Source: Bacteroidaceae bacterium (GTDB lineage Bacteria > Pseudomonadota > Alphaproteobacteria > RF32 > CAG-239). Taken from it: a stretch of DNA of 38,298 nucleotides. The stretch is taken from assembly GCA_963646605.1 (NCBI GenBank), contig CAVIWQ010000001.1, positions 15,936-54,233 on the forward strand, read 5' to 3'. Below are positions 9,001-21,000 of this stretch, one piece after another (the first letter of the stretch is position 1; every line of letters starts with the position of its first letter). A program made the position numbers.

Positions 9001-12000
9001 CGGCTTCTTCTAAAGATGCTTTTGTCGCAAATGTTGCCGAAAAACGTTATTTGTGGACTGCGCGTGCTTTTGCGATTATTACGGCAATCAGTATGTGCTG
9101 TAATATAATTTTGCTTTTAGCAATAGCGCAAGTTATCCCTTTGTACCGTGTAGAACCGTTTTTGGTCACTTTTCAAAATAAAGAAGAACAGGTTTACAAT
9201 ATTCAGCCGGTAAATCAAAATTTAGCTGAGGCAAAAAACATTACGGAAGTGTTTGTGCGCCAATATGTTTTGATGCGCAGTTCATTTAATCGTGATATTC
9301 CCGAAGTGGAAGCTCGCTGGATGCCGGGGGGGGCTATTCAGGAAATGTCATCGGCGACGGTTTATGATGACTTTGTTAAAAACACTGCAAACAGAGCATT
9401 GGATCTAATTCGTACGCGCCGCATGATTAGAGATGTCAGAATTATGACAGTTAATGAATTAGGTTCTGGAATATGGCAGGTTGAATATGAAACGCGTGAC
9501 ATGTATCCGGATTCTAAAGCTCCGGAAGTAAATTACTGGACAGCTTCATTGAAAATTGTATATCGTTATAAAAGCGTAAAATTCAAAGAACGTTTGAAAA
9601 ATCCGGTCGGCTTTACGGTCGTTAACTACTCTTTGAGTTATAATAAAGTAAAATAAGGTGGATAAAGCTATGCTATCAAAATCTATAAAAACAAATATCT
9701 TCGGTTTGGTGGGCGTGCTAATGGCCGGTCAAGTCTGGGCGCAGGCAACTATTAGCAGCATGGATCAAAATGCCGACCAATCGCAGGGGCAATATCAGCC
9801 AATGGATATGAGTTATGCCGGATTTAATTCTTTAGGAATGATGCAAAGCGCATGGCTGGATCCTCTGCAAAATTTGGGCGAAGGACAAACCAAACCGGCA
9901 TATTCTAAATATTATTGGTCGCCGGATTTGGTGCTTCCATTGCGTCTTCGCGAAGGCATGATTACAATGATTAATTTCCCAGAGTGGGAAATGATCGAAG
10001 ATATTTATATCGGTGATAATTCCACATTTGACGGACAAATATCCGGCCCCAGCACTTTGTTGCTGTACCCGCGTAAAGGCGCTAATGTTGGTGTTGATAC
10101 CAATATTATCGTTTTCGGACGCTCAGGAAATCGCTATGTTTTTTATGCGCGCAGCGAGGGTGTAAATACAGAACGTTTAACTAATGCAATCGTTGATATT
10201 GATGTTATCGGCGCGGAAAACGGCGGCAGCGGCAGTGGAAATTTGGGAAACGGAAATTCCGGTGGCCGCGTTAACGCTACAAAATATTACGGAGCCGGCG
10301 GCAAGTCAGTTGATTCAACTTTTACAAAACGCAACCAAAAAAACAGTTGGGTTGAAAATATTCCGTTGGATCCGACAAAATTTCGCTTTGACATAGAAGT
10401 ATATGTGCCTAATCCAGATGATGTTATAATTGCGCCTGAGCGTGTTTGGCGCGATGATATTTTCACCTATATTGATCTTGGTGCAAAATCACTGAATATG
10501 CATCAGCGCCCGATTGTAACATTGATTGTTGAAAGAATGGAAGTTCCGGTCGGTTTTCGTACCAAAGGTCCGAATAATCGTTTGATTATTGTTGAAGCTA
10601 TTGGGGATATGGTTTTGCGCAACGGAAAAAGAATTGTTTGTTTGAAGATGCGTCGTTCCGATGATGCCGGACTTGATAATGCCAGCTATGCAGATGATAT
10701 TACGGCTAACGAATGGGATAGAGGAGATAAAATTCCAAGCATAAAAGCAAAAGCCGGCGGAGCCGAATATCCTGATTTCAGCGCCGGTCCCGTAGGCGAT
10801 GCAGCTAACTATCCAACCGGACAATTTGACATTAATATGAACGGTAGTGAGGTTATTGTTCCTGAATACGGCAATGGCAGCGGTAACGTCGGTGGCAATG
10901 GAAACGGAAATGGTTCCGGACGCGGCGGTAATGGTGCCGGTATGGGGGCAAACTATGGTGCCGATGGCGGAAATTTTGACTATTCAAAAATGCACCGTAT
11001 TCAAAATACTCAGCAATTTGATCCGGCAGCAAGCAGTTTGTCAAATCAGTATCGCTATGGTTCAGGATTTACAGATGGCGCCAATTCCAATATTTCTATA
11101 GAACTTGGAACAGATGCCAATGTTGAAAATTTGGAGAGTTTATGGGATAACCTTTCCGATAAATATGCCAAAATTTTGAAAAATTATGATCCTTTCTTCT
11201 CGGTAGATGCACCTGCCGACGGTCAAGGTAAAGAGCTGTTTCATCTCCGCATCGGACCGGTTAAAACTCTTGATGAAGGTGACAGTGTTTGCAGCAAATT
11301 GGGAAGAAACGGTGTATTTTGCAGTGTAGTTAGGACCCAATGAGTAAAGAAGTATTAACACATTCTGAAAGTTATATTAAAAAAACCAACCGCATAATTC
11401 TTGCGGTTGGTATAACTTCTTTTGTAATTTTTATTTTAGGACTTTATCTTTTATTTTCAAGCGATGAGCCTATTGAAGAATATAGTGAGCCTGTATTTAC
11501 TGATAATGACGATGCTCTCAATGTTACGACAACAGCACCGGTGGAAGACAGCATAGAATTCAGTACGGTTGATGACGGCGTGCCGCCCATAACCACAACT
11601 CCTAATCCGGTTGCTTTAGGGCAGGTTGTTATAGGAGCAGATGCAAAGAATGTTTTAACCATAGGCACAAACGGGAAAGCATCTATAACAATTATGTCGG
11701 TTCAATTGGCAGAAGCTCCGTTTGATGGTTTTGAATATAGCGACCAATGCACAGGGAAAATACTGCGAGGTAAAGAAACCTGCGACATTACTATGAGCTG
11801 GATGCCTGTTGTTGCCGGAAATGTGCAAAACAATTTTATTGTTGCCTGGCATGAAAGCAATGTGACGCAAGCCAGTGCAAAATCTGAAAAAGTTCCTGTT
11901 TATGGTAATGCGGTTAATAAAGAGGACTGCAATTTTTGCGATACGGCAGGAATCGGCGGAGGCGCCAAATCGGGGACGAATGGCAAAGAGAGTTTATCAA

Positions 12001-18000: not shown

Positions 18001-21000
18001 CGGCGGCAAAATTATCGGTACGGTATCTTCAGGCGGAAAAGTTTTGAACTATGCCGGTGAAAATCTCGGGTGTATTAACCAACAAAGCAGGTTGTTCAAT
18101 AAACAAAACACATTAATCGGTCGAGTTGTGGATATCAGACCTGTTATGAGCATTGAAGGCAAAATAATCGGCCGTAGTATGCTCGATGGCAGTGTCGTTA
18201 ACAATAGCAGTCAAAATATAGGTTATGTGCTTCCAAATGGCGCTGCCAATTCCAAAACAGGCTCTGATATGGGAATGCTGTTCAAATATCGTTACGCTTT
18301 TGATAAAGACAGCCGTTTTATCGGAACAGTGAATAATAATGCTGAAGTCATCTCTGCCAAAGGTGAAAATATAGGACAAGTTGATTTCGATGGTAACGTT
18401 GTTATCCGCGGCGAAAAATCCGGCTATGCGCTATATGATATGTATATGTACAATAATGAAGGCTATTCAATAGGCTATATTGCATCTGACGGAGGAATAA
18501 TATCTTTTGCTAATCAGCGTTTGGGAAAAATGATTCGCGGTTTCGCAATTGATAACAGCGGCAAAATGTTTGCCAGAGGAAACCGTGATTTTAATATTCG
18601 TAACAAAAATAATTTAATTATCGGCGAGCTTCGCTTAGACGGCAATGTTGTAAATAATAATGGTGAAACAATCGGAACATTGGGGGCTGCCGGAGATATT
18701 GAAGCACCGGACGGGCAAATTATAGCCACAGCTAAACCTTTGCAATTTTATGAAGCAGAGAAAAAACAGCCGATTTATGATGCAAACGGAAATGTTATCG
18801 GATATGTCAGCTCTGATAATAAAATAGTAGATGCTAAAGGAAATGTTATCGGACAGTTAGCGCAAGACGGCTCTGCAATCAGTTTAGACGGTACAGTAAT
18901 CGGAAATACCAAACTTGATTGGTATGAGCGTCCGGTTGTTAATGAAACTAAATTACCGGAAGTCGGAAGTTTGACAGTAAAAGAGAGTGATTATAAACGT
19001 TCGGTTAACATTGCTTTGACACCGGATGGAGAATATTTGGGAGATATTCTTGAAGATGGCAGTGTTATAAATAAAGCTGGAAAAGTTTTAGGTAAATTGC
19101 TGCCGGATGGATTGGTTGTTGACGATCAAGGCTCGTTGATTGGTATAGAAGAATCTGCTAAAAAAACGGAAAAAGGCGATATATTTGTTCCTGCCGGAAG
19201 TTTTGGCGAAGGCGGAGCTTATGGAACCGGTAAAGGTCCTGGAAACTTAGGCCCCGGCGGCGGATATGGCCCTGGAGAGCGCTATGATGTTCAACGTTCG
19301 GCCGCATTAAGCGCTGCACAAGGGGAACGCCGACAAAATATGGAAGTAGGAAAAATCAGTACAAATTACAGCCGTGAGGCTTTTGACGGCAAACAAAAAG
19401 ATTGGGGACTCAAAAAAATTATTTCAACCTGGCCGGTTGATATGGATATGATGATTTTGGCTGATAAACCGATTCCTGCGGTTATTGCCCGTTCTATTGA
19501 TACGGAACACGAAGTTCCGGTTACGGCATTTGTCGAACGCAATGTCTATGCTGAGGACGGTCGTAATGTTATTATTCCTGCCGGCAGCCGGTTAATGGGA
19601 AGCTGCGGTGGTGGCGGAGGCGGATCGGAAGAATCTTCCGGTTCGGCTCGTATAACTATTCAGTGGGATCGCTTGATTTTGCCAAACGGAGTTATGTTTG
19701 ATATTAGCAGCGCACAAACCGGTGATGCACAAGGCCGAGGCGGCGTGCTGGGATATTTGGACAGACAATTGGTTAAGAAATATGCAATGCCGTTTGCTAC
19801 ATCTTTAGCAACCAACGGTATGGGTATTCTATTTTCAACCAATAAGGAAGGTAATGGTCAAACGGAAAATTCAAGACAGCAGGCGATGAATGATGCCCGC
19901 GAAGGATTTTTGGAAGATACCAAAAAAATGTTTAACCAAATTTTGTCGGATCGTTCAAATATAAGAGCCATTACATATATTCCGGCAGGCACCAGAATTA
20001 TTGTTTATCCAAAAGTTGATTTATGGTTGAGAACAATGGATAATGATGCGGATGCATCAGATAATACTGAATATAAAGATGTTTTGATTGATGATAAGAA
20101 AACATCTGATAAACGAGCTGCCATGGCTGCTGAACGCCAGTCTAAATTGAATGGCCGAGGCGGAGGAAGTTCATCGTCATCATCTGCTGCCGGATCGGTT
20201 GTTTACGAAGAAGACAGCAGCAATGCACAGCCGGCAATGGCTTTGGTTGATGATACGGCATCAGCTGGTGCTAAAAATAAAAAACGTCGTCCAACCGGCG
20301 CAACACCGCCTCCGCCGAGTAGCGGTGTTGTGAGCACAAACCGTTCCAATGTACCGTCAGACAGCGGTAGTTCGAGCGGAAGCAGCGATGTTCCACAGCT
20401 CTTTTAAGAGGAGAAAAAGATGAGTTTTGAAGTTTTGGAATCAGTTCTTCGTCCTCTTGCTTATTGGTATAACCAAGAAAATATTGAAGAGGTTGCTATT
20501 AATCGTTCGGGGCAGGTTTGGCTTCGTTTGCGCGGCAAAAGAGCCTATCCTTGGGTTATGTATAAAGATGAAAAACTGACCAAAGAATATCTAACCGATT
20601 TGCTCTATATTGTGGCAAATACCTATGAGCTTCCGTTTGAGCCGGCTTCGGGGATTCCTGTTGTATATGCGACATTACCCGGAGAACATCGTTTTTCTGC
20701 AATTTGCGGTAAAAATGTAATGTATGATGAAAGCGATATTACCGGCGGTGTTGCGATTGCCATTCGTGTACATAGTGATGATGTCGCTTTCGGTTTAGGA
20801 GATTACGGCTTAAAACAAGGTGAAAAACTGCATCAAATTAATCCTTTGAAAAATATTAAAGATCCTGAAGATCCTTATGAGCGTTTATTGCTGAGTATTA
20901 AGCGCGGCGACCATATTTTAGTCAGTGGCGCGACTGCAACCGGTAAAACAACATTCTTAAATAATTTGCTAAAAATATTGGATATTCACAAACGTATCAT

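What the first reader, a model, noticed from the sequence alone, without database searches (positions are those of the whole stretch)
11340..20407. About 7 kb of one ~17-residue repeat spread across two adjacent T4SS genes, one of which is the VirB10 homologue
A 1567-aa ORF lies between virB9 and virB10, translationally coupled to virB9 by an ATGA overlap. From about nt 12005 it consists almost entirely of a ~17-aa unit, D-x-x-G-N-[VI]-I-G-x-V-x-x-D-G-x-V-V, built from two 8-9-residue half units. The next ORF starts 2 nt later and continues the same repeat for about 1000 residues (16130-19146) before ending in an unmistakable TrbI/VirB10 barrel domain (19380-20040).

Canonical VirB10 proteins are roughly 380-480 aa, and the rvh-type order normally runs B9-B10 directly. 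Large repeat expansions of VirB10 homologues are known in only a few systems: CagY of Helicobacter and DotG/IcmE of Legionella/Coxiella. Those repeats are different (large alpha-helical Cys-containing modules, and short pentapeptide-like repeats). This therefore looks like an independent, undescribed elaboration of the envelope-spanning part of a T4SS. With several dozen units per protein, the array could build a very long beta-rich stalk, sheath or extracellular fibre.

I could not place the repeat confidently. It faintly resembles YD/RHS-type beta-hairpin repeats (LAYDENGNVIGYVDENG) and the fungal/bacterial G-x-V-x-D-x-x-G-x-x-IG repeats annotated as a DUF.
Basis: partly seen in the sequence, partly recalled or inferred. 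Interest (0 to 1): 0.9.

Follow-up and report, generated by a model that had tools for sequence, protein, structure and literature searches.

The report
Giant split VirB10 with beta-flower repeats
The two huge repeat-filled genes are the two halves of one enormously enlarged VirB10, the envelope-spanning protein of a type IV secretion machine in uncultured gut bacteria; its middle has been replaced by about 135 copies of a small beta-hairpin repeat of a recently catalogued family with no known function.

Summary
ORF A (11340-16043, 1567 aa) and ORF B (16046-20407, 1453 aa) carry a 17-residue repeat over about 7 kb, and ORF B ends in a clear TrbI/VirB10 barrel.

Two points of the interpretation change.
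- The repeat is not unplaced. It belongs to the Pfam beta-flower families (PF21785, PF21784, DUF3659; Durairaj 2023), a predicted fold with no known function.
- ORF A is not an extra gene between virB9 and virB10. It is the N-terminal half of a fissioned VirB10.

The fission rests on these results.
- ORF A's membrane anchor plus ASH/PapD-like Ig domain matches the N-terminus of unsplit VirB10 proteins.
- Six single polypeptides of 1930-2363 aa carry the same N-terminus, beta-flower arrays and a C-terminal TrbI domain. One of them was checked and sits in the same virB8-virB9-virB10-virB11 synteny.
- ORF B has acquired its own signal peptide.
- The split is fixed in all close relatives examined, and both halves are under strong purifying selection.

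The same repeat also fills a DotG/IcmE homologue in a Dot/Icm locus and extends the CpaB protein of Tad pili. It therefore looks like a recurrent periplasmic spacer. I found no literature on any of this. I rate it a new variant of the known VirB10 repeat-expansion theme (CagY, DotG).

The parts
9658..11343 (+). virB9 homologue (561 aa) with a C-terminal SPOR domain. Its stop codon overlaps the ORF A start (ATGA).
   Evidence: CagX 2.3e-11 and SPOR 1.8e-4; sequence read.
11340..16043 (+). ORF A, the N-terminal half of the fissioned VirB10 (1567 aa)
11394..11456 (+). Membrane-anchor helix of ORF A (aa 19-39). It follows a conserved cytoplasmic motif, S-E-x-Y-x-K-K-T-N-R.
   Evidence: AF2 helix 8-40. 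The motif is shared with the unsplit giant VirB10 proteins.
11589..11915 (+). ASH/PapD-like Ig domain (aa 84-192)
   Evidence: AF2 pLDDT about 80-86. Foldseek match to the HYDIN PapD-like domain 2e6j, TMt 0.70. hhalign probability 97.9% to the N-terminus of unsplit VirB10 proteins.
12024..14159 (+). Regular beta-flower hairpin array (aa 229-940) with a 17-aa unit and a 51-aa super-repeat. It contains the copy-number hot spot at aa ~422-850.
   Evidence: AF2 of aa 223-420 gives pLDDT 86.6 and an all-beta model.
13119..13494 (+). The only recent DNA tandem duplication: period 153 nt (3 hairpins), 2.5 copies, 86% identity
14160..15929 (+). Degenerate hairpin array of ORF A (aa 941-1530). Its length is conserved among orthologues.
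15969..16040 (+). Conserved C-terminal tail of ORF A (GSFINLDKRVAGYALQEVAKNRRN). Its last codons carry the ribosome-binding site of ORF B (GGAGGA, 16032-16037).
16046..20407 (+). ORF B, the C-terminal half of the fissioned VirB10 (1453 aa)
16046..16126 (+). Sec-type signal peptide of ORF B (aa 1-27), predicted to be cut at A-E-A | Q-E
   Evidence: Read from the sequence. Twenty-three or more orthologues have variable signal peptides that keep the AxA site before a conserved EITAIDFNG.
16127..19135 (+). Beta-flower hairpin array of ORF B (aa 28-1030). It is degenerate. The first ~100 residues are the best-conserved part.
   Evidence: Bflower_2 2.6e-60 with 8 matched stretches.
19136..19453 (+). 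Gly/Pro-rich linker (aa 1031-1136)
   Evidence: Sequence; conserved in homologues.
19454..20029 (+). TrbI/VirB10 beta-barrel domain (aa 1137-1328). It includes a helix-loop-helix segment (about aa 1237-1302) that looks like the outer-membrane antenna.
   Evidence: Pfam TrbI 1.5e-34. PDB matches to ComB10, TrwE, CagY and TraF. The antenna is judged by inspection only.
20030..20404 (+). Ser/Gly/Pro-rich C-terminal tail ending in the conserved motif V-P-Q-L-F
20420..21388 (+). virB11 homologue, followed by a terminator-like hairpin at 21412-21442
   Evidence: T2SSE 6.5e-20.

Best explanation
ORF A and ORF B together are one hyper-expanded VirB10 that has undergone gene fission.

Ancestral form (inferred from the unsplit relatives): cytoplasmic tail, membrane anchor, ASH/PapD-like Ig domain, beta-flower hairpin array, Gly/Pro linker, TrbI barrel.

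In this clade the array grew to about 135 hairpins of 17 aa. The two ORFs total 3020 aa, longer than CagY (1927 aa). The gene was cut inside the array.
- ORF A keeps the inner-membrane anchor, the Ig domain and about 76 hairpins.
- ORF B gained its own Sec signal peptide and carries about 59 hairpins plus the outer-membrane barrel.

Inferred mechanism (not shown):
1. ORF A stays in the inner membrane.
2. ORF B is exported, and its barrel joins VirB9 under the outer membrane.
3. The beta-flower arrays fill the space between the two membranes as a modular all-beta scaffold, in many copies per machine by analogy with other T4SS core complexes.
4. The two halves are held together without a covalent link by the unusually conserved segments on either side of the fission point. 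One beta-flower may be assembled from hairpins of both chains.

ORF A changes length in 51-aa steps (three hairpins).

The confidence given (0.8) is for the identity claim, a fissioned giant VirB10 with beta-flower arrays. For the inferred mechanism (a periplasmic scaffold with non-covalent re-association) I would give about 0.45.
For: Shown by tool results:
1. The repeat belongs to the beta-flower families and the barrel is TrbI.
2. ORF A aa 69-187 aligns to the N-terminus of unsplit 780-820-aa VirB10 proteins: BLASTP 2e-11 and hhalign 97.9%, E 5.6e-13. Those proteins lie directly after virB8-virB9.
3. Searching 1.84 billion representatives with ORF A aa 1-215 finds P0292, P0304, P0305, P0308, P0331 and P0352 (1930-2363 aa, no X residues). 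All align from residue 1 to about 205.
4. The five of them that were scanned have Bflower_2 plus a C-terminal TrbI domain in one chain.
5. P0304 lies in the order VirB8-VirB8-VirB9-VirB10(2350 aa)-VirB11 in two independent assemblies. ORF A and ORF B align collinearly to it.
6. The split recurs in the window, L001-L008, L010 and L011, with the conserved ORF A end 'EVAKNxRN*', the ribosome-binding site, and a signal peptide followed by 'QEITAIDFNG'.
7. A chimeric query across the junction finds 12 clusters of the ORF A type and 23 of the ORF B type. None spans the junction.
8. dN/dS is 0.03-0.10 in every part, the same as in the barrel.
9. The segments flanking the junction are the best-conserved parts of the arrays.
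10. The same repeat lies between the membrane anchor and TrbI in a DotG/IcmE homologue inside a Dot/Icm-syntenic locus. It also extends the CpaB/RcpC protein next to a Tad secretin.
11. AF2 gives a confident all-beta model, pLDDT 86.6.
Against: - The ASH Ig domain is a promiscuous module found in many unrelated giant proteins. Domain homology alone would therefore be weak; the case rests on the full-length N-terminal alignments and the synteny.
- Alignments inside the arrays are ambiguous, so the exact ancestral break point cannot be mapped.
- No tool here tested whether ORF A and ORF B bind each other.
- No tool tested whether the hairpins close into discrete flowers. Model coordinates could not be inspected.
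- No tool tested where the arrays sit in the cell.
- The signal peptide is judged by eye, not by a predictor. If it is not cleaved, ORF B would also be anchored in the inner membrane.
- If extended, each array is longer than a normal periplasm is wide (rough estimate). A purely periplasmic location is therefore not obvious.
Confidence: 0.8

Rival explanations
1. ORF A is a separate accessory protein inserted between virB9 and virB10, for example an adhesin, sheath or fibre subunit built from the same repeat.
For: ORF A is a separate polypeptide with its own start codon. Its length varies among relatives from 1101 to 1839 aa.
Against: Its N-terminal module is the VirB10 N-terminal module, and single-chain versions exist in the same synteny. 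It has an uncleaved-type N-terminal anchor rather than a secretion signal. The split is confined to one clade, while more distant relatives are unsplit.
Confidence: 0.07
2. The arrays are host- or environment-exposed variable modules, like the CagY middle repeat region. Recombination would change repeat number to tune or disguise the machine.
For: ORF A changes copy number in 51-aa steps within one hot spot, and shows one recent 153-nt duplication. CagY and DotG repeats are reported to vary by recombination (PMC6761968). If extended, the arrays would exceed the width of the periplasm (inference).
Against: dN/dS is 0.03-0.10, as low as in the barrel, with no sign of diversifying selection. The ORF B array and the degenerate half of ORF A keep a constant length. 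The repeats are old at the DNA level. ORF A is anchored in the inner membrane.
Confidence: 0.2
3. The hairpin arrays are peptidoglycan or cell-wall binding repeats that fasten the machine to the sacculus, rather than a spacer.
For: [quoted passage not shown] The same system carries a SPOR domain on VirB9 and an M23 peptidase on a VirB6-like protein. The repeat recurs in periplasmic parts of three kinds of envelope machine.
Against: There is no sequence or fold match to a solved cell-wall-binding repeat. LytC appears only at rank 38 with probability 0.03. No binding data exist for any beta-flower protein.
Confidence: 0.2
4. The split is an assembly or sequencing artefact, or a recent pseudogenisation of a single giant gene.
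For: Repeat regions do break metagenome assemblies: L009-L011 carry 100-N gaps, and many database entries are fragments.
Against: The same junction occurs in at least 11 loci at 50-97% identity and in 35 protein clusters. The frames differ, a ribosome-binding site is conserved, and a canonical signal peptide has evolved. Both halves are under purifying selection.
Confidence: 0.02

Closest known systems
CagY (Helicobacter pylori Cag T4SS VirB10 homologue, 1927 aa)
   Same: It has a C-terminal TrbI barrel; B aa 1137-1321 aligns to CagY. A very large repeat region lies N-terminal to the barrel, and repeat number changes by recombination.
   Different: CagY's repeats are unrelated; the PDB sequence search matches only the barrel. 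CagY is a single polypeptide. Here the repeat is a 17-aa beta-hairpin, the two ORFs total 3020 aa and the gene is split. Selection is purifying.
DotG/IcmE (Legionella/Coxiella Dot/Icm T4BSS)
   Same: It has a membrane anchor, a variable central repeat region and a TrbI domain. It is reported to couple the outer-membrane core to the inner-membrane complex (PMC6761968).
   Different: Legionella's repeat is a 10-aa / pentapeptide-like motif, and no pentapeptide family is matched here. However, one DotG homologue in an uncultured organism (P0223, locus L012) carries beta-flower hairpins instead.
Beta-flower fold families PF21785 / PF21784 / DUF3659 (Pfam clan CL0395; Durairaj et al. 2023, PMC10584680)
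   Same: Very strong HMM matches. The [DNEQ]xxG hairpin-tip motif is present. The predicted structure is all-beta with short strands. No PDB analogue exists.
   Different: The described members are small, single flowers of 8-12 strands, often with a central helix or a lipoprotein signal. Here there are arrays of about 76 and 59 hairpins without helices, fused to a secretion-system protein. Closure into flowers was not verified.
Rickettsiales vir homologue (rvh) T4SS
   Same: There are duplicated VirB8 genes and an array of large VirB6-like paralogues. In relatives the T4SS genes lie among housekeeping genes (PMC2653234).
   Different: RvhB10 is a single gene in that paper's component list; that it is of ordinary size is from my own knowledge. 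The organisms here are uncultured gut and rumen Alphaproteobacteria (record titles), not Rickettsiales as far as those titles show.
CpaB/RcpC of Gilvimarinus (Tad/Flp pilus) with a beta-flower extension
   Same: The same repeat family is attached to the periplasmic part of an inner-membrane-anchored protein next to an outer-membrane secretin.
   Different: It belongs to a different machine. The array has about 20 hairpins and lies C-terminal to the SAF and RcpC domains. There is no split.

Membership tests
VirB10/TrbI family | C-terminal TrbI beta-barrel domain | tested here: met
   Pfam TrbI 1.5e-34 (cut-off 35 bits, score 119.9) at B aa 1137-1328. ComB10 2e-21; TrwE, CagY and TraF also matched.
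VirB10/TrbI family | Gene located between virB9 and virB11 | tested here: met
   The order is virB8-virB8-virB9-A-B-virB11. Unsplit relatives have the same order.
VirB10/TrbI family | N-terminal inner-membrane anchor on the same polypeptide as the barrel, giving one chain that spans both membranes | tested here: not met
   ORF B starts with a signal-peptide-like sequence. The anchor is on ORF A. The feature is met only by the pair A+B, or by the unsplit relatives.
VirB10/TrbI family | Helical antenna within the barrel that inserts into the outer membrane | not tested
   A helix-loop-helix-like stretch at B aa ~1237-1302 was seen by eye only. The barrel was not modelled.
Beta-flower (Pfam PF21785/PF21784, clan CL0395) | Profile match above the gathering score | tested here: met
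   Bflower_2 scores 366 bits on A and 202 bits on B (cut-off 38). Bflower scores 185 and 74.5 bits (cut-off 25).
Beta-flower (Pfam PF21785/PF21784, clan CL0395) | Semi-conserved [DNEQ]xxG motif at the hairpin tip | tested here: met
   Units read D-x-[ND]-G-N-[VI]-I-G-x-V-x-x-[DN]-G-x-V-V. The motif definition is from PMC10584680.
Beta-flower (Pfam PF21785/PF21784, clan CL0395) | Hairpins close into a shallow barrel of 8, 10 or 12 strands | not testable with these tools
The sequence super-period is 3 hairpins, not 4 or 5.
RHS/YD repeat proteins | Individual YD repeats that match the profile, forming an RHS shell with a core domain | tested here: not met
   RHS_repeat scores 2e-20 summed over the protein, but 0 stretches pass on their own. 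Foldseek match to RhsP has probability 0.15 and TM no higher than 0.12. No RHS core domain was hit.
Pentapeptide / DotG-type or CagY-type repeats | Sequence match of the repeat region to those repeats | tested here: not met
   No pentapeptide family in the Pfam output. CagY chains match only the barrel.
rvh-type T4SS | Duplicated scaffold genes (VirB8, several large VirB6-like proteins) | tested here: met
   Two VirB8 (30% identical to each other). Four polytopic VirB6-like paralogues at 27670-37166 on the minus strand. Definition from PMC2653234.
rvh-type T4SS | Full component set (B3, B4a/b, B9a/b, D4; no B5) and a rickettsial lineage | not tested
   VirB4, VirB3 and VirD4 are not in the window. 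The phylogeny was not computed.

The most novel reading that the evidence does not exclude
Beta-flower hairpin arrays are a general, length-tunable rigid spacer that bacteria insert into the envelope-spanning connector of unrelated machines (T4ASS VirB10, T4BSS DotG, Tad CpaB). In this clade the VirB10 link from inner to outer membrane works across a non-covalent junction inside the array. That would mean covalent continuity of VirB10 is not needed for assembly or energy sensing. The machine built from dozens of such chains would have a periplasmic or surface structure unlike any T4SS imaged so far.
Probability: 0.35. Interest if true: 0.75.

Novelty: new variant of a known kind. Interest (0 to 1): 0.62.

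Why it matters
VirB10 is the only T4SS subunit thought to reach from the inner to the outer membrane as one chain and to pass ATP-dependent signals to the outer-membrane gate.

- A natural, conserved, selected fission of VirB10 tests whether that continuity is needed.
- The locus gives the beta-flower fold its first functional context. That fold was found only by mining AlphaFold models and has no known role. Here it sits as the periplasmic body of three kinds of trans-envelope machine.
- The locus adds a third, independent repeat type to the CagY/DotG theme. 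This marks the middle of VirB10 as a general hot spot for size expansion.
- It shows that common gut and rumen Alphaproteobacteria carry an unusually large rvh-like secretion machine.
- On the practical side, metagenome assemblers and gene callers routinely break these genes into fragments.

Tried and rejected
1. The apparent three-ORF partition in L010 and L011, and the 796-aa VirB10 in L009, are artefacts of 100-N scaffold gaps inside the array. For the same reason, many of the 550-950-aa 'Bflower+TrbI' proteins are probably fragments.
2. I suspected that the 780-820-aa unsplit VirB10 proteins (P0086, P0095) hold a few hairpins. The unit HMM finds none above 2 bits, so I dropped the claim.
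3. Foldseek of both AF2 models against the PDB matched only the ASH Ig domain. The repeat model has no credible analogue.
4. A PDB sequence search with ORF A found nothing.
5. The exact-sequence look-up of ORF B in public assemblies found no record.
6. tblastn against 72,556 plasmids matched only the barrel. Sequenced plasmids do not carry this architecture.
7. Literature searches for RF32 + T4SS, DUF3659, beta-flower + VirB10 and split VirB10 returned nothing relevant.
8. The promoter scan was at chance level.
9. RHS/YD membership was rejected.
10. The cluster look-up gave almost no organism names.

Full report
OBSERVATION

The window carries, on the + strand, two virB8 genes (7864-8619 and 8931-9656), virB9 (9658-11343), ORF A (11340-16043, 1567 aa), ORF B (16046-20407, 1453 aa) and virB11 (20420-21388).
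- virB9 and ORF A overlap by ATGA.
- ORF A ends in TAA at 16041-16043. A GTG start follows two bases later, and a GGAGGA ribosome-binding site lies inside ORF A's last codons.
- A strong terminator-like hairpin follows virB11 at 21412-21442. Internal promoter-like sites are at chance level. The genes therefore look like one operon.

The 17-residue period is real.
- Similarity autocorrelation peaks at lag 17 in A 229-940, A 941-1567 and B 30-1035, and not in the C-terminal 418 residues of ORF B.
- A unit HMM finds 44 + 16 units above 2 bits and none in 20 shuffles.
- Only A 229-940 is crisp. That zone has a secondary 51-aa period, equal to three hairpins.
- At the DNA level just one recent duplication is visible: 13119-13494, period 153 nt.

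The TrbI barrel is unambiguous. Pfam gives 1.5e-34 at B 1137-1328. The PDB sequence search gives ComB10 2e-21 and also matches TrwE, CagY and TraF.

WHAT THE REPEAT IS

Pfam places it in the beta-flower families.
- Bflower_2 (PF21785) scores 1.8e-111 on A with 14 matched stretches, and 2.6e-60 on B with 8.
- Bflower (PF21784) and DUF3659 also match.

These families were created in 2023 from AlphaFold models of a new predicted fold. It is a shallow barrel of 4-6 beta-hairpin 'petals' with a [DNEQ]xxG tip motif, and it has no known function or solved structure (PMC10584680).

The RHS_repeat score is only a summed score, and no single stretch passes.

AlphaFold2 with orthologue alignments gave two models.
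- For A 1-500: a membrane helix (8-40), a disordered linker, a beta-sandwich (84-192) and then short strands throughout (pLDDT 73.5).
- For A 223-420 alone: pLDDT 86.6, pTM 0.69 and 23 short strands.

Foldseek identifies the sandwich as an ASH/PapD-like Ig domain (HYDIN 2e6j, TMt 0.70). It finds no credible PDB analogue for the repeat model (best probability 0.15, TM no higher than 0.2). I could not inspect coordinates, so whether the hairpins close into discrete flowers is untested.

ORF A IS THE N-TERMINAL HALF OF VirB10

1. ORF A's N-terminal module aligns with the N-terminus of 780-820-aa VirB10 proteins of other gut Alphaproteobacteria. BLASTP gives 2e-11, and profile-profile comparison gives 97.9%, E 5.6e-13. 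In those genomes virB10 follows virB9 directly.

2. A search of 1.84 billion representative proteins with A 1-215 found six proteins of 1930-2363 aa aligned from residue 1 to about 205.
   - They share the S-E-x-Y-x-K-K-[ST]-N-R cytoplasmic motif and contain no X residues.
   - Pfam shows beta-flower arrays and a C-terminal TrbI domain in the same chain for the five that were scanned.

3. One of them, P0304 (2350 aa), sits in the order VirB8-VirB8-VirB9-VirB10-VirB11 in two independent assemblies, with no Ns in the gene. ORF A and ORF B align collinearly to its N-terminal and C-terminal parts.

4. The Ig domain on its own is promiscuous. The weight therefore lies on the full N-terminal alignments together with the synteny.

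THE SPLIT IS REAL, FIXED AND SELECTED

The same junction occurs in the window, L001-L008, L010 and L011. Its features are:
- an ORF A end of ...EVAKNxRN*;
- a ribosome-binding site;
- different reading frames for the two ORFs;
- an ORF B start with a variable signal peptide that ends in AxA, followed by a conserved (Q)EITAIDFNG.

A chimeric query across the junction retrieved 12 clusters of the ORF A type and 23 of the ORF B type. None truly spans it.

dN/dS against three orthologues is 0.03-0.10 in every part, like the barrel. dS is saturated, so the ratios are approximate.

The best-conserved stretches of the arrays flank the junction.
- Mature ORF B 1-100 is 92-94% conserved in the close clade.
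- It is 76% conserved against L010/L011, where the array average is 30-50%.
- ORF A's last 17 residues are 74% conserved.

ORF A varies from 1101 to 1839 aa. All the variation lies in one hot spot (window aa ~422-850), with indels that include 102, 153 and 255 aa, all multiples of 51. ORF B stays at about 1438-1460 aa in the close clade.

A RECURRENT MODULE

Beta-flower hairpins also form the centre of P0223, a 738-aa protein with the layout anchor, 15 hairpins, TrbI.
- It follows DotI/IcmL and DotH/IcmK.
- It precedes genes whose sizes match DotF, DotE, DotP, DotN and DotO.
- It is therefore a DotG/IcmE homologue (gene sizes from PMC6761968).

About 20 hairpins are also appended to the CpaB/RcpC protein next to the Tad secretin in Gilvimarinus.

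No sequenced plasmid VirB10 carries the repeats.

MECHANISM (INFERRED)

1. ORF A remains in the inner membrane.
2. ORF B is exported by the Sec pathway, and its barrel joins VirB9 beneath the outer membrane.
3. The arrays occupy the space in between as a modular all-beta scaffold.
4. The two halves probably re-associate through the conserved junction segments.

Rivals:
- a surface-exposed variable module like CagY's repeats. Copy-number steps argue for it; purifying selection and the inner-membrane anchor argue against it;
- peptidoglycan binding. The SPOR and M23 domains in the same system are suggestive, but there is no direct evidence;
- an independent accessory gene, which is disfavoured;
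- an artefact, which is excluded.

COMPARISON AND NOVELTY

This is the CagY/DotG theme of VirB10-family repeat expansion, with three differences: an unrelated repeat, a larger total size and a gene fission. The system is rvh-like in its duplicated VirB8 and its four VirB6-like paralogues. The source organisms are uncultured human-gut and ruminant Alphaproteobacteria (record titles). I found no paper that connects VirB10 with beta-flower or DUF3659, or that describes a split VirB10. Databases label these proteins only automatically, for example as 'YD repeat-containing', 'DUF3659 domain-containing' or 'TrbI/VirB10 family'.

Verdict: the feature is real. It is a new variant of a known kind and of moderate to high interest.

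Noticed in passing
window 9658-11343 (+), C-terminal aa 480-559: The VirB9 homologue is unusually long (561 aa) and ends in a SPOR (peptidoglycan-binding) domain (E 1.8e-4). The C-terminal sequence ...CSKLGRNGVFCSVVRTQ is conserved in all related loci.
   Followed up: partly
window 27670-30603 (-): A 977-aa polytopic VirB6/TrbL-like protein carries an N-terminal M23 peptidase domain (4.5e-9). It may supply the cell-wall hydrolase role in place of a VirB1-type lytic transglycosylase.
   Followed up: no
window 27670-37166 (-) and 7864-9656 (+): There are four consecutive VirB6-like paralogues (977, 884, 439 and 843 aa, 5-8 hydrophobic segments each, 21-30% identical to each other) and two VirB8 paralogues (30% identical). 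This is gene duplication of the rvh type.
   Followed up: partly
window 20384-20404 (+); also the C-termini of L003, L006, L008-L011 and P0292-P0352: The extreme C-terminus of VirB10 ends in a conserved short aromatic motif (V-P-Q-L-F, I-P-A-L-F, ...L-F / I-F / M-F) after a low-complexity Ser/Gly/Pro tail. It occurs in both split and unsplit forms. Its function is unknown.
   Followed up: no
window 26533-27513 (-): A 326-aa protein with two HTH_3 (Cro/C1-type) domains lies between the two T4SS gene blocks. Similar double-HTH genes sit at the same place in L010 and L011, and an ORF of the same size in L006. It may be the system's regulator.
   Followed up: no
window 129-7848 (+): Four ORFs upstream of virB8 (572, 230, 461 and 1305 aa) have no Pfam match at all. 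ORFs without Pfam hits also precede virB8 in L016 (557, 246 and 703 aa) and L010 (1283 aa). They may be unknown T4SS components or effectors.
   Followed up: no
window 12000-20000: GC skew is strongly positive (0.18-0.35) across the repeat-coding DNA, against about 0.07-0.17 upstream. This is most likely a codon-composition effect of Gly/Asp/Val/Asn-rich repeats rather than a replication signal.
   Followed up: no
L009 9881-9980, L010 9899-9998, L011 9874-9973: Scaffolded metagenome assemblies place 100-N gaps inside the VirB10 array, and gene callers then report fragments or spurious minus-strand genes. L009 (56% GC) appears to hold an unsplit VirB10 of at least 2450 aa that is interrupted only by the gap.
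   Followed up: yes
L012 8138-17767; L013 8001-10499: A Dot/Icm-syntenic locus has a DotG/IcmE homologue that uses beta-flower hairpins instead of Legionella-type repeats. In Gilvimarinus, CpaB (832 aa) has a ~500-aa beta-flower extension and lies next to the Tad secretin.
   Followed up: partly
window 19604-19650 (+), B aa 1187-1200: A poly-Gly/Ser insertion (CGGGGGGSEESSGS) lies inside the TrbI barrel domain.
   Followed up: no
P0246 (4358 aa), P0266 (5650 aa), P0316 (6901 aa): The ASH/PapD-like Ig domain of ORF A recurs up to 35 times in unrelated giant proteins of the metagenome library. It is a promiscuous module, not specific to VirB10.
   Followed up: no
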